Assembly: GCA_964016885.1 (NCBI GenBank)
Contig: OZ024747.1
Span: forward strand, 56,234,001-56,298,000
From: Eledone cirrhosa
Taxonomy: Eukaryota
DNA length: 64,000 nucleotides
Direction: 5' to 3'
Position 1 is the first letter of the stretch, and each line of letters opens with the position of its first letter. The notes under the pieces are model-generated. The model was not told the origin of the DNA. It saw nothing but the letters and a program-made list of their open reading frames with translations, and did no database searches. Shown here piece after piece: positions 30,411 to 61,313 of this stretch. Both the position numbers and the translations under genes were made by a program.

Positions 30411-30873
30411 TATTGGTAAAAGGAAAATAAAATGCTGACAAATTGTTCCCAGTGAAAAATAGTTTAATTAGGAATAAGTAAAAATTAGTAATAGTATCGG
30501 TTAGTATTCAGTTTTGGCTTTAAGTTTTTACCGGTTGCGCATTTCTAATGCTTTTCAAAAATAATTTTGAGATAGAGCGCCCGTGATGTTTGCTCTAATC
30601 TAAAATAAATTTGAGATAGAGCGTCCATGATGTTTGCTCTAATCTACAGATTAGAGCAAACATCACGGGCGCTCTATCTCAAATTTATTTTTGAAAAGCA
30701 TTAGAAATGCGCAACCGGTAAAATTTAAAACCAAAACTGAATACTAACCAATACTATTACTAATTTTTACTTATTCCTAATTAAACTATTTTTCACTGGG
30801 AACAATTTGTCAGCATTTTATTTTTATTTTACCAATATATCATAATTCGTGTGTTACACCTCTATTCTTTTAA

Positions 30874-40520: not shown

Positions 40521-40562
40521 TGTGATAGTAATGACAGAATGAATATATATATATATATATAT

Positions 40563-40925
40563 ATTAGAAAGCGAGGTTTTTTTACAAAATGAAAAAAAAC
40601 CGAGGTGTCCTACACAAGTGAAAGTATAAAGAAAAAAAGATGAAATCGAAAATGAAACTGGAGTCTTATTTAAAAAAAAATATATATATTTATTTGGTTC
40701 CTTTACCGGTTTTCGCAGTTCTTCTGCTTTTCAAAAGTAGAGTTGAGATGGAGGGTCTGTGGTTTTTCTCACATCAGATGTGAGAAAAACCACAGACCCT
40801 CCATCTCAACTCTACTTTTGAAAAGCAGAAGAACTGCGAAAACCGGTAAAGGAACCAAATAAATATATATATTTTTTTTTAAATAAGACTCCAGTTGCAT
40901 TTTCAATTTCATCTTTTTTTCTTTA
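40563..40925 (-). mobile_element. HHR element family J, palindrome plus tail
   Basis: 149-nt arms around position 40776 with about 2 mismatches. Tail 40563-40626; (TA)n flanks. Confidence 0.8.
40815..40851 (+). ncRNA. Hammerhead motif with U3-A8 covariation, family J
   Basis: CTT-TTGAAAA-GCAG-AAGAA-CTGC-GAAA-ACCGG-TA-AAG, then AATAAA at 40858. Mirror copy at 40701-40737. Confidence 0.65.
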
Positions 40926-40940
40926 AATATATATATATAT

Positions 40941-41290
40941 GGAGGCATATATATGGAGCATTGGCCTTGCAATCGAAAGGTTGTGAGTTCAATTGTCAGA
41001 CCGGGTGATGTGTTGTTTCCTTGCGCAAGACACTTTATTTCACATTGCTCCAGTTTACTCAGCTGTAGAAATGAGATGATAGGGACTGGGGTCCCTATCA
41101 TTCCACTGTAAAGTGGTCGTGGAGGTGCTACGGCAAAAAAAGCACCCAGCACTCACTGTAAATGAGGTTGGTGCTAAGAAGGGCATCTAGCTGTAGAAAT
41201 CAGGCCAGAATCTGTTCCCGTCCCACCCTTGCAAGCAGGGAAAAAGTGGACGTAAAATTAAATGATGATGATGATGATGATGATGATGAT
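40941..41290 (+). mobile_element. SINE family 2
   Basis: Matches 12080-12425; ends in (GAT)n. Confidence 0.85.
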
Positions 41291-48333: not shown

Positions 48334-48688
48334 TATTGGTAAACGGAATAGAAAATGCTGACAAATTGTTCACAGTGAAAAATAGTTTAATTAGGAATAA
48401 ATGAGAATTAGTAATTGTATTGGTTAGTAATCAGTTTTGATTTTAAGTTTTACCGGTTGCGCATTTCTAAATGCTTTTCAAAAATAATTTTGAGATAGAG
48501 CGTCCATTTGAAAAGCATTTAGAAATGCGCAACCGGTAAAACTTAAAATCAAAACTGATTACTAACCAATACAATTACTAATTCTCATTTATTCCTAATT
48601 AAACTATTTTTCACTGTGAACAATTTGTCAGCATTTTCTATTCCGTTTACCAATATATAATAACTTGTGTGTTACACCTCTATTCTTT

Positions 48689-49392: not shown

Positions 49393-51517
49393 ATCATCAT
49401 CATCATTTAACGTCCATCTTCCATGCTTGCATGGGTTTGGACGGGAGTTTTCCCACTTGAGGCAAGATTGGTTGTTCTGCTCATATAGGACTGTCTGGCG
49501 GGTTTTCTATGGCTGGATGCCCTTCCTAACACCAACCACGTGTACAGTGTGGACTGGGAGGTTTTTACCGTGTTACCTACACGGCCACATTACAGCATGG
49601 AGTGTGTGTTTTTTTGTCATGACACCTACACGTCTGGCGGGTTTTCTACGGCTAGGTGCCCTTCCTAACACCAACCACGTTTACAGTGTGGACTGGGAGG
49701 TTTTTACCGTGTTACCTCCACGGCCACATTACAGCGTGGACTTTGTGTTTTTTTGTTATGAAACCTACACGATCTCATTTGTTTCGGACTGGATGTTGTG
49801 GTATCAACATAACTTCACATTTAAGGGGATGGTGTAGATGGGGTGGGGGTAGTGGTACGGGGTGTATTTTTGTTAGAGGTGCCTACTGACTGTAGGTTTC
49901 GCTTTGTATTTAGGCAAGGCGGGTCTTCTGTATAACTGTGTAGCGCCAAAGATCTCGGTCCAGTGACATTGTCTTGGAGAGGTGTAAGTGTGTGAGGTCG
50001 GAATTTATCAAGTCGTCCCAGGTTTTTCTGGGTCTGCCTACTCCGTGGCTACCGTCTATTTTTATTGCTTTGCACTTTTTTATACAGCTGTCGTCTTTCA
50101 TGCGCATCACGTGACCGTACCAACGTAGTCTTCTCTTGAGTAAACAACATCTGATCCCTCTTATTCCTAATTTCTCCCTTTGTTCGTTTATGCTTTGCCG
50201 TTCACGTATATTACTATTACACATCCAGCGGAGCATGCAAGCTTTGTTCCTCTCCAGTCTGCGTATATCCTCTGCACACAATGCCCAGGTCTCACTGCCA
50301 TGTAACTTTGCTGTTCGTATGCAGGCATCATACAGCCTGCCTTTCATTTTAAGAGAGAACCCTTTAGCAGCCAATAGTGGTATAAGCTCTCTGAACTTTT
50401 TCCATCCCGTTCTGACTCTAGCTACTGTACTTTCAGAGCACCCTCCCCCACTGCTGATTTTGTCACCCAGGTAACGGAAGGTATCCACTCTTTCTATAGA
50501 ACCATCTGTGCAATGGAATGAGCTAGTATTCTGTGGGCACTTGCTGCTACTTATTGCACCAGAGCACCAGCCACATATAAAATCTATATTCTTAGTTAGC
50601 TTACCTGTGATCCCACTACATCTTTTATGCACCCATTCTTTGCATTTGAGACATAAAATGGAGTTTCTGCCTACTCCTTTCCTACACACTGAGCATGGCC
50701 ATTTCCCAGATGGGACCGGTGCCCTATTTTCCTTCCTACAAACTAGAACTTTAGTCTTAGACAAGTTAACTTTAAGGCCTTTTGATTCTAGGCCATGCTT
50801 CCATGTTTGGAATTTCTTCTCTAGTGCAGCCATTGATTCAGCTATGAACGTTAGATCATCTGCATATAGGAGTTTCCATGGGCAGCAGGTCTTGAACTCC
50901 TCTGTTATAGCCTGAAGGGCAATAATAAATAGTAGGGGGCTAAGAACGGAGCCCTGATGAACACCAACTTTTACGCTAAACTAAACTCTTCACTATATTT
51001 GTTGTAAATTCTAACCTTGCTGACTGTTTCTTTATACTTGGCTTGTATAGCTCTCACAAGCCATTCATCAACACCTAGTTTTCTAAGAGCCCACCAGATA
51101 ATGGAGTGGGGGACTCTGTCAAAGGCTTTCTCCAAGTCATCAAAAGTTAAGTATAGGGGTTTACTTTTAGCTAGGTACTTCTCCTGTAGTTATCATACAA
51201 TGAAAAGAGCGTCTGTGGTACTTTTACCTGGCACAAACCCGAACTGCATTTCATCTAGATCAATTCGTTCTCTGATTAGTTGCGCTATTACTTTTTCTGT
51301 GACCTTCATAACCTGGTCGATTAATTTAATGCCTCTATAGTTACCCCTATCTCCTTTACACTTGTAGCAGTTAATGATGATGCTGCTACGCCAGTCTTTC
51401 GGAACGGCCCCATTCTGTATGGCTTGGTTTACTATCCGGATGACCATAGTGTGTCCCACCATTCCAGATGCTTTCAGCATTTCAGCAACTATTTCCGAAG
51501 GCCCAGCCGCCTTACCC
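49393..51517 (-). mobile_element. RTE-clade LINE, 5'-truncated, frameshifted RT plus 3' UTR
   Basis: GKAAGPSEI, NYRGIKL, QFGFVPGKSTTDA, GVHQGSVLSP, YADD at 50855-50866, FRYLG and RRLRWYGHVMR; stop at 49910. 3' UTR has a ~140-nt duplication and a (GAT)n tail. Confidence 0.92.
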
Positions 51518-52094
51518 ATATATGTATACATACAAATATATATACATACAAACATATATATATATACATACAAATATACATACAAACATACATATATATA
51601 TATAGGAACGATCGACTTTCATCATATCGGACCGAGGGAACAATGTTTCCGTTGGTCTTTCCAATTGCTAATACTATCTATCGGTCGCAACTCCAGGTAG
51701 AAGGAGCAACGTGAAATAAAGTGTCTTGCTCAAGGACATAACACATTGCCTGGTCCAGGAATCAAACTCACAACCTTACGATTGCGAATCCAATTCTCTA
51801 ACCACTCAGCCACACGCCTTCACTACATACAAATATATATACATACATATATATATACATGCAAATACATATACATACAAATATATATACATACATATAT
51901 ATATGACAAAGTGAGGGTGTATTTGAATATATATAAAAATGTTCTAGCGATGAGTTTTTTCATTTTTATATGAACTCAAAAACACTCTCGCTTCATTTTG
52001 ATCAGAGACAACTTTTTTTTTCATTTAACTTTATCATAACTATGATTAGCTTTCTATTTAGGACAGACACCACAGCTTGAGGTCCACTATACCA

Positions 52095-58279: not shown

Positions 58280-60102
58280 ATATTTTAAAAAAAGCACATG
58301 AATTACATCCTTGTCAGAGTGCATGACAGATGGGATGTACAGTATGTTCGTTTTCTTTGTGGGGCTGAGTGTTGGATGGATCACTGTCTGGTGCGTGCAA
58401 AAGTGAAATTAATTACAAAACGTAAAATCTGGACTGCAAGTGTTACCCTGCCTAAAAGACTAAATGCTGCTCGTCTTAGGGATAATAGTGTGAAGAGGAC
58501 ATTGCAAAAAGAATTGAATGTTGCAGATATTGGTAAGGAATGGCTGACCCTTAAAAGGTCGTTTTATGATATAGGAAGCGTGTTCTGGGATTGGTGCAGA
58601 GAAAGCATCAAGACTGGTTTAAAGAAAATGATGAACATATAAATAAATTGTTGGCTGATAAGAGGCGTGCTCTGTCATGCTACTTGGCAGCAAAGCCACA
58701 GGAGAAGAATATGTTGCATAAGGAACTCGAGGATGCGAAATCACGTATGAAGGATAAGTGGTGGAGTGAGAAGGCTGATGAGATACAAGCTGCATCAGAT
58801 TCCAATAAAACAAAGCTGTTGTACAATCTCTTGCATGAAGTTTATGGACCATCTTGTTCTCTGGTGACACCGCTTCACAGCAGGGATGGCAAGGAACTTT
58901 TTTGTGATTCACAGGGAACTCTGCAAAGGTGGCGAGAGCACTTTAATGAACTTTTGAATCAGCTGTCTGTCGTCAATGAAGATTTCCTCAATCTAATCCC
59001 TGAGAAACCTATGAAAGTAGCTCTCGCAGAACCACCAACATTAGAGGAAGTTGCAGTAGCTGTCTTGAAGCTGAACAGTGGAGGTCTTGCAGGCATAAAG
59101 AAGAGAAGAGAGCACACATGCCTTATATGCCTCTACCTTTGTCTTCTTCTATATGTCTTGCCAACCCCTGAGGCGCCTTTCTAGCTTTCCGAAAGCATCA
59201 CTTACATTCCTAATCCTGTGTGGAATTTTATAATCAAGATTGCTGTATTGGTTGACAGTGCTTCCCAGGTAGACAAACTGATCAACCACTCCAAGTCGTT
59301 TACCATACACATAGATATTTGGTTTATTGTACTGCTTACAAGGGGCAGGATGGTACATGACAATGGTTTTCTTGAGTCTGACAGTCAATCCTAAGGCAGT
59401 GCAAGTATCAGAAAATGCATTCAAAATGTGTTGCATATCAATCTCTGAGTTTGCTACAAGATCACAATCATCCGCATACAAAAGGTCTCTTATGATAGTG
59501 GTAAGCAGTACACTGAACCAAATATCTATGTGTATGGTAAACGACTTGGAGTGGTTGATCAGTTTGTCTACCTGGGAAGAACTGCCAATCAATACAGCAA
59601 TCTTGATTATAAAATTCCACACAGGATTAGGAAAGTAAGTGATGCTTTCGGAAAGCTAGAAAGGCGCCTCAGGGGTTGGCAAGACATATAGAAGAAGACA
59701 AAGGTAGAGGCATACAAGGCATGTGTGCTCTCTTCTCTTCTTTATGCCTGCAAGACCTCGGTCACATATCGACACCACCTTAAACAGTTGGAATGTTTCC
59801 ACCAGATGTGTCTCAGATGAATCCATGGCGTTCACTGGAGGGACCACATCAGTGATGTTGAGATTTTGGAAGGCTCTCTGTGTGAAAGCATAGAAGCTCT
59901 TGTGCTTAATCAAAGACTCCAAAGGAGTGGTCAACTTGCCAGGATGAAGGATTCTAGGATACCAATACAACTCTTTTATGGAGAGTTAGTTAAAGGAAAA
60001 CAACCTCCACATAAACTGAAAAAGAGGTGTAAGGATTCATTTAAAGCCTCCTTGAAAGACGTTAACATCTCTACTGATACATGGGAAAGCATAGCTGCTG
60101 AT
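58280..60102 (+). mobile_element. Second RTE-clade LINE, rearranged with internal inversion
   Basis: Endonuclease end (NYILVR..GAECWMDHCLVR), linker (RKHQDWF, RWREHFNELLN), inverted RT segment with YADD at 59467-59478 (-), and C-terminus RMKDSRIPIQLFYGEL. Confidence 0.88.
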
Positions 60103-61044: not shown

Positions 61045-61228
61045 TATTGGTAAAAGGAAAAGAAAATGCTGACAAATTGTTCCCAGTGAAAAATAGTTTA
61101 ATTAGGAATAAGTAAAAATTAGTAATAAGTATTGGTTAGTATTCACTTTTGGTTTTAAGTTTTTACCGGTTGCACATTTCTAATGCTTTTCAAAAATAAT
61201 TTTGAGATAGAGTGCCCGTGATGTTTGC

Positions 61229-61234
<6 letters not shown>
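61045..61234 (-). mobile_element. HHR element family I, solo tail-less copy
   Basis: Equals the left arm of 30411-30600. Variant core at 61161-61196. Confidence 0.8.

Positions 61235-61313
<79 letters not shown>

What the first reader, a model, noticed from the sequence alone, without database searches (positions are those of the whole stretch)
40815..40851. Family J: compensatory U3-A8 hammerhead core
The core reads UUGAAAA instead of CUGANGA. Known: positions 3 and 8 form a tertiary Watson-Crick pair, so C3U plus G8A is a compensatory change and argues for selection on catalysis. All three helices are present, with a palindromic ACCGGU helix III and AATAAA just downstream. Standard CUGANGA searches would miss it.
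Basis: partly seen in the sequence, partly recalled or inferred. Interest (0 to 1): 0.75.

Follow-up and report, generated by a model that had tools for sequence, protein, structure and literature searches.

The report
Penelope retroelement hammerhead, known U3-A8 core
This is one of more than ten thousand copies of a small RNA motif, predicted to cut itself only when two copies pair, that sits in the end repeat of a Penelope-type jumping gene; its swapped core base pair is already published for such elements, and this copy carries a rare extra base and is likely a passive relic.

Summary
The motif is real (40815-40851), but the reading needs correcting. It is the minimal type I hammerhead in the pseudo-LTR of a Neptune-like Penelope retroelement: 11,725 exact genomic matches, and longer copies run into an RT + GIY-YIG ORF. 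The window holds a 5'-truncated fold-back insertion with 149-bp arms, so a mirror copy lies on the minus strand. Both arms carry an extra A in GAAA, seen in only 6 matches genome-wide. Helix III can form only between two molecules; helix I is 3 bp; AATAAA is not conserved. U3-A8 is published, including the same UUGAAAA core in a Schistosoma Penelope element (PMC4209133) and in PMC3088659. It is shared by all related families sampled here, so it is likely one old switch. The better evidence for selection is a retained core and covarying helix II between families with unalignable flanks. Cleavage is untested. Most copies start 42 nt upstream of the core, not at the cut site, and a sister family of about 10,000 copies has A13C fixed. 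The scan noted U3-A8 Neptune hammerheads before on other DNA of this genome. Verdict: new member of a known kind, low interest.

The parts
40815..40851 (+). Minimal type I hammerhead motif, U3-A8 core (40818-40824), helix II 40825-40837, GAAA with one extra A (40838-40842), palindromic ACCGGU (40842-40847), predicted cut after A 40848, 3-bp helix I
   Evidence: family form; extra A
40701..40737 (-). Mirror copy of the same motif in the other arm, with the same extra A
40777..40925 (+). Right arm: 5'-truncated pseudo-LTR copy without the 3' tail, ending in (TA)n
40564..40775 (-). Left arm: pseudo-LTR copy with the ~60-nt 3' tail (40564-40626), abutting an (AT)n tract
40776..40776 (.). Centre of the fold-back; the A 42 nt upstream of U3, the family's main 5' boundary (likely transcription start, inferred)
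40776..40806 (+). Predicted 5'-terminal hairpin of the pseudo-LTR; both strands recognisable in sister family J2
   Evidence: fold; J1/J2 alignment
40543..40564 (.). (AT)n microsatellite at the insertion site

Best explanation
The motif is the minimal type I hammerhead carried in the pseudo-LTR of a Neptune-like Penelope retroelement, predicted to self-cleave weakly and only as a dimer, and the window copy is a truncated fold-back insertion that is likely inert. Shown: position in both pseudo-LTRs of a full-length element; RT + C-terminal GIY-YIG ORF; more than 11,000 copies; core kept and helix II covarying across families; extra A and 149-bp palindrome at this locus. Inferred: transcription starts 42 nt upstream of the core; two hammerheads (the two pseudo-LTRs of one RNA, or two RNAs) pair through ACCGGU to build helix III; the cut falls after GUA; it would trim or circularise a minority of element RNAs, because nearly all inserted copies retain the uncut motif; C3U plus G8A likely arose once at the base of this clade.
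For: Full-length copy L062 has the motif in a pseudo-LTR directly before the ORF and again ~1.4 kb after it. ORF fragments hit GIY-YIG above cut-off (25.9 and 30.9 bits vs 22.6) and RVT_1 below cut-off (E 9.5e-5, 5.9e-6); CX4CXXC linker and CCHH in J1, J2, J3. Families J1-J5 keep UUGANAA, G12, A14, A15.1, U16.1; N7 is A, U or C and H17 is A, C or U. Helix II is paired in 20 of 20 cells over J1-J5, reached by 27 of 20,000 shuffles (relatedness not controlled). 100-nt flanks of J1 or J2 against J3 or J4 align no better than shuffled, and endonucleases are 50-59% identical. Co-folding pairs two copies through ACCGGU, 7.3-7.7 kcal/mol better than two monomers for J1. A more distant Neptune-like element in the same genome (L347) has a canonical CUGAAGA core, and the U3-A8 families form one side of a branch against it (support 60/99: not shown, not rejected). 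Published minimal hammerheads of Penelope elements have the same build and low, dimer-dependent activity.
Against: No cleavage data. No pile-up of 5' junctions at the predicted cut site: 251 copies genome-wide begin within -2..+7 of it and the first 100 are spread flat by eye; 61 of 102 unselected arms begin 31-49 nt upstream of the core instead, 3 of 102 at the cut site. Sister family J2 has A13C in nearly all copies (36 of 10,477 matches have GAAA) and J6 mostly has a U10.1-U11.1 mismatch. Helix I is only 2-4 bp. In J3 the predicted dimer is not the hammerhead fold. The extra A need not kill the window copy: an insertion in GAAA (U13a) was described as likely tolerated.
Confidence: 0.75

Rival explanations
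1. The motif is hammerhead-derived but is now kept as an RNA pairing or protein-binding element (dimerisation through ACCGGU, recognition by the RT), with catalysis relaxed or lost in this clade.
For: A13C fixed in a family of ~10,000 copies; U-U closing pair in J6; helix I of 2 bp in J3/J4; CCGG palindrome unchanged across J1-J4 and J6; inserted copies almost all uncut; Naiads proliferate without canonical hammerheads (PMC8557442 passages).
Against: The positions kept (U4, G5, A6, 3-8 pair, A9, G12, A14, A15.1-U16.1, H17 never G at family level) are the catalytic set, not what pairing alone needs; U10.1-U11.1 is the best-tolerated mismatch; uncut inserts are also expected if cleavage is slow or followed by religation.
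Confidence: 0.2
2. The window copy itself is an active, selected ribozyme with its own poly(A) signal.
For: Core and helix II intact; AATAAA at 40858; insertions in GAAA can be tolerated.
Against: It belongs to the older subtype with a 3-bp helix I (2.7% mean divergence); extra A in 6 of about 11,700 matches; read-through RNA folds into a 149-bp hairpin (-234.5 kcal/mol) that buries the motif, and the partner copy is antisense; no host exon was apparent in the window's long ORFs.
Confidence: 0.03
3. A chance look-alike inside an AT-rich palindromic MITE-like repeat.
For: AT-rich core, weak fold, no Rfam hit, long inverted arms.
Against: 0 descriptor hits in 150 shuffles; arms are head-to-head copies of a retroelement 3' end with variable centres and a tail on one arm only, not fixed terminal inverted repeats; same motif at the same place in five endonuclease-linked families.
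Confidence: 0.02

Closest known systems
Minimal hammerheads (min-HHR) of metazoan Penelope-like elements, U3-A8 variant of Schistosoma mansoni Cercyon elements (Cervera and de la Pena 2014, PMC4209133; parts 1-2 of 4 of the main text and part 2 of supplementary file 2 read; supplementary file 1 not available)
   Same: Type I topology in pseudo-LTRs, G10.1-C11.1, palindromic 15.2-16.2, short helix I, opposite-strand pairs 100-700 bp apart, U3-A8 core; Fig. S3 lists S. mansoni(4), PLE-associated, with core UUGAAAA and a 3-bp helix I.
   Different: No extra base between A9 and G10.1; 4-bp helix II; 4-nt CCGG palindrome insert; host element is Neptune-like; >11,000 near-identical copies; sister family with A13C.
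Natural U3-A8 hammerheads (Perreault et al. 2011, PMC3088659; section 8 and passages read)
   Same: C3-G8 covarying to U3-A8, reported active in vitro; U10.1-U11.1 and a GAAA insertion (U13a) also described.
   Different: This motif has no self-contained helix III; A13C is not among the variants named in the section read (Fig. 5 and Figs S6-S7 not seen).
Neptune/Nematis clades of EN+ Penelope-like elements (Craig et al. 2021, PMC8557442; passages read)
   Same: RT followed by C-terminal GIY-YIG with CCHH, CX2-5CxxC linker, DKG motif, pseudo-LTRs, inverted 5'-truncated partner, tail at one end, microsatellite insertion bias.
   Different: Tail is ~60 nt here (30-40 bp described); Neptune versus Nematis not resolved, no reference proteins compared.
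Animal non-LTR retrozymes (bioRxiv 10.64898/2026.07.22.740005, parts 1-2 of 5 read; PMC7229834, search listing only)
   Same: Type I hammerhead; related 316-bp (U3-A8) and ~467-bp (C3-G8) tandem families exist in this genome.
   Different: Family J1 is not tandem and is continuous with a coding element.

Membership tests
PLE minimal type I hammerhead | Core YUGANRA ... GAAA ... UH with a 3-8 Watson-Crick pair (family form) | tested here: met
   11,725 exact matches, all 100 listed read TTGAAAA
PLE minimal type I hammerhead | Exact GAAA spacing in the window copy | tested here: not met
   One extra A in both arms; 6 matches genome-wide
PLE minimal type I hammerhead | Helix II closed by G10.1-C11.1, with covariation | tested here: met
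   20 of 20 cells paired in J1-J5; 27 of 20,000 shuffles
PLE minimal type I hammerhead | Palindromic helix III region allowing dimer | tested here: met
   ACCGGU duplex in co-folding for window, J1, J2; not the minimum-energy dimer for J3
PLE minimal type I hammerhead | Short helix I (2-5 bp in published examples) | tested here: met
   3 bp in window/J1b, 4 bp in J1a, 2 bp in J3/J4
PLE minimal type I hammerhead | Unpaired base between positions 9 and 10.1 (consensus, >80%) | tested here: not met
   Absent in J1-J5; also absent in a few published rows
PLE minimal type I hammerhead | Located in both pseudo-LTRs flanking the ORF | tested here: met
   L062
PLE minimal type I hammerhead | Self-cleavage after NUH | not testable with these tools
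   Indirect genomic test (5' junctions at the site) showed no peak; no RNA reads available
Neptune-like EN+ Penelope element | RT plus C-terminal GIY-YIG in one ORF | tested here: met
   GIY-YIG above cut-off; RVT_1 fragments below cut-off; order
Neptune-like EN+ Penelope element | CX2-5CxxC linker and CCHH motif | tested here: met
Neptune-like EN+ Penelope element | Inverted 5'-truncated partner, tail at one end, microsatellite target | tested here: met
   22 of 22 head-to-head pairs up to 2.6 kb apart have the tail on exactly one arm (counted by eye; one further pair 3.6 kb apart has it on both); (TA)n flanks
Neptune-like EN+ Penelope element | Phylogenetic placement in Neptune rather than Nematis | not tested
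   No reference PLE proteins available
Non-LTR retrozyme | Non-coding tandem arrays with one hammerhead per unit | tested here: not met
   J1 copies are dispersed singles or head-to-head pairs continuous with an ORF

The most novel reading that the evidence does not exclude
In this Neptune-like clade the hammerhead has become an RNA dimerisation or RT-recognition element and no longer needs to cut: a sister family spread to about 10,000 copies with A13C fixed, another with an open closing pair, the palindrome never changes, and about 60% of copies record an uncut RNA starting 42 nt upstream of the core. The clade would be a natural series for testing whether Penelope elements need ribozyme cleavage at all.
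Probability: 0.2. Interest if true: 0.55.

Novelty: new member of a known kind. Interest (0 to 1): 0.2.

Why it matters
As given, little: U3-A8 cores in Penelope hammerheads are published. The residual value is as test material for an open question, what pseudo-LTR hammerheads do for Penelope elements: young, high-copy families with an intact core (J1a 0.8%, J3 0.2% divergence), a sister with A13C and one with a U-U closing pair, plus a sharp genomic record of where the template RNA begins.

Tried and rejected
Rfam: no gathering hit in the window; no hammerhead hit on family copy L031 at E<=1, weak HH9 hits only on the tandem families. Canonical C3-G8 version with the CCGG helix III: 0 matches. 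Pile-up of 5' ends at the cut site: suggested by 3 of 100 rows, not borne out by the unbiased pattern. Lower mutation counts in the core among copies (0.7% vs 2.1% in flank) were not taken as selection, since the core is A-rich and most changes fall on C and G. A first covariation count of 24 of 24 cells used an atypical J6 copy; most J6 copies have U-U at 10.1-11.1, so J6 was dropped and the count redone on J1-J5. Two 'mixed' cores are antisense pieces of J2. Expression: no RNA holder listed; two guessed-RNA runs laid nothing, two other runs gave one contig each that keeps the core; none of this is used as evidence on expression. Family K as a C3-G8 sister: it is a ~467-bp tandem repeat with no ORF in the loci fetched. 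Papers not held: Lunse et al. 2016 on PLE hammerhead variants (PMC5785218), Przybilski and Hammann 2007 (PMC1986816), Nelson and Uhlenbeck 2008 (PMC2271363); the first may already cover these families or A13C. Searches that found no paper on this family or on A13C.

Full report
Observation. A type I descriptor finds the motif only when one extra A is allowed after G12; it gives 0 hits in 150 dinucleotide shuffles of the window. The monomer folds no better than shuffles and Rfam does not see it. The motif lies in the right arm of a 149-bp, 99% inverted repeat with a 1-base centre at 40776, so a mirror copy with the same extra A lies at 40737-40701 on the minus strand; the arms differ at 2 of 149 positions.

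The family. The window is from a 3.0-Gb animal genome; my impression that it is a cephalopod is recalled, not tested. The three-A form matches 11,725 times, reverse control 0; the window's four-A form 6 times, 2 of them this locus. Longer copies extend upstream into a broken ORF with RVT_1 (below cut-off) and C-terminal GIY-YIG (above cut-off) hits; 4 of 6 fragments sent hit a family. L062 shows pseudo-LTR with hammerhead, ORF, about 1.4 kb of 3' region, second pseudo-LTR with hammerhead. The protein has DKG, a CX4CXXC linker and CCHH, which by the passages read in PMC8557442 point to Neptune or Nematis, with (TA)n bias attributed to Neptune. Copies sit in (TA)n and often head to head; in 22 of 22 pairs up to 2.6 kb apart exactly one arm has the ~60-nt tail (by eye; a further pair 3.6 kb apart has both). 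The window locus is such a fold-back: tail on the left arm, none on the right. Two subtypes are about equally common among 91 of 102 arms scored: J1a (4-bp helix I, 0.8% divergence) and J1b (3-bp helix I, 2.7%); the window copy is J1b.

Is it a hammerhead? Pattern searches found further U3-A8 families: J2 (10,477 matches), J3 and J4 (3,337 together with J1 mutants, control 1), J5 (most listed rows of 1,189 matches, control 74; a 316-bp tandem repeat) and J6. They keep UUGANAA, G12, A14, A15.1 and U16.1, vary at N7 and H17 as hammerheads do, and exchange helix II pairs: 20 of 20 cells paired over J1-J5, reached by 27 of 20,000 shuffles (five related families, so not a probability; J6 left out because most copies have U-U at the closing pair). 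Flanks of J1 or J2 against J3 or J4 align no better than shuffled and the endonucleases of J1, J2, J3 are 50-59% identical. That, not the U3-A8 pair, is the case for selection. Co-folding joins two J1 copies through ACCGGU, the dimer arrangement described for PLE minimal hammerheads.

The compensatory claim. No C3-G8 form with the CCGG helix III exists in the genome. Among 30 GIY-YIG loci, every motif found behind the J1, J2 or J6 endonuclease is U3-A8; one more distant element, L347, has CUGAAGA, and the U3-A8 families form one side of a branch against it and two unlabelled rows with weak support (60/99, 151 columns, long branches). One old switch is thus compatible with the data, not shown. 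The variant is in print: PMC4209133 reports U3-A8 in Schistosoma Cercyon elements with about 1,300 hits and lists a PLE-associated UUGAAAA core with a 3-bp helix I; PMC3088659 reports natural U3-A8 cores and cites in vitro activity.

Does it cut? Untestable here. The genomic record is against efficient cutting of the RNAs that were inserted: 61 of 102 arms chosen without regard to the hammerhead begin 31-49 nt upstream of U3, with a sharp edge at A-42/-43, 3 begin at the cut site and 16 run beyond the 300 nt examined; 251 copies genome-wide begin within -2..+7 of the site, spread flat over the first 100 listed. J2 shows the same upstream edge in 11 of 30 arms, J3 does not. I read A-42 as the transcription start, in line with the internal pseudo-LTR promoter of Drosophila Penelope (PMC2377424 abstract and section 16; PMC6765202 passage); an RT stop at the conserved hairpin that starts there is the alternative. 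J2 has C in place of A13 in nearly all copies (36 of 10,477 with GAAA) while its sister J6 has GAAA, so the change is derived and did not stop expansion. For the window copy, read-through RNA forms a 149-bp hairpin that buries the motif; the extra A may or may not be tolerated (U13a).

Earlier notes of this scan report U3-A8 hammerheads of Neptune elements and of ~318-bp retrozyme-like repeats elsewhere in this genome and reach the same verdict; they were seen after my own reading and are not counted as support. Unseen material that may bear on novelty: Lunse et al. 2016 (not held), supplementary file 1 of PMC4209133, figures of PMC3088659.

Verdict. A real, family-level hammerhead motif of a known kind in a known setting; this copy is a slightly damaged passive insertion. 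Interest 0.2. The bolder reading, that catalysis has become dispensable in this clade, is given 0.2.

Noticed in passing
window 30415-30845, 48335-48660, 61048-61235: Three insertions (five motifs) of sister family J2, whose hammerhead has GCAA in place of GAAA (A13C); about 10,000 copies, only 36 with GAAA; linked to its own RT/GIY-YIG ORF (L263).
   Followed up: yes
window 40776; G000:C1 copies in L148-L177, L208-L262: About 60% of J1 arms start within 12 nt of a sharp 5' edge 42 nt upstream of the core, at the first base of a conserved hairpin; several perfect palindromes are centred on that base. Likely transcription start or RT end point.
   Followed up: partly
window 40627-40925; L149/L150, L036, L049: The two arms of fold-backs share private changes (the extra A here), so one arm is copied from the other or homogenised later.
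   Followed up: partly
L128-L147 (e.g. G000:C1:6519946-6521556): J5: 316-bp tandem retrozyme-like repeat with U3-A8 core and a helix III that covaries (ACAUG/CAUGU versus ACAAG/CUUGU); weak Rfam HH9 hit.
   Followed up: partly
L268-L297 (e.g. G000:C1:5738327-5752443): Family K: ~467-bp tandem arrays with canonical CUGAUGA hammerhead, 9,365 matches, arrays also head to head.
   Followed up: partly
L319-L345 (J6 clade): U3-A8 hammerhead with U10.1-U11.1 mismatch about 450 nt after the endonuclease, in 12 of 15 loci of this clade.
   Followed up: partly
L347, 386 nt after the GIY-YIG match: Neptune-like element with a canonical C3-G8 minimal hammerhead, the nearest C3-G8 relative found.
   Followed up: partly
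L013, L015, L051, L095, L105, L134 and others: At least six further dispersed repeat families with canonical CUGANGA hammerheads; the genome is very rich in hammerhead-bearing repeats.
   Followed up: no
window 49910-51618 (-) and 58570-59655 (+): Broken LINE-type reverse transcriptase fragments (RTE-like by recalled motifs; not scanned against a library).
   Followed up: no
window 40940-41290: A SINE-like dispersed repeat ending in (ATG)n directly right of the insertion, also seen in L019.
   Followed up: no
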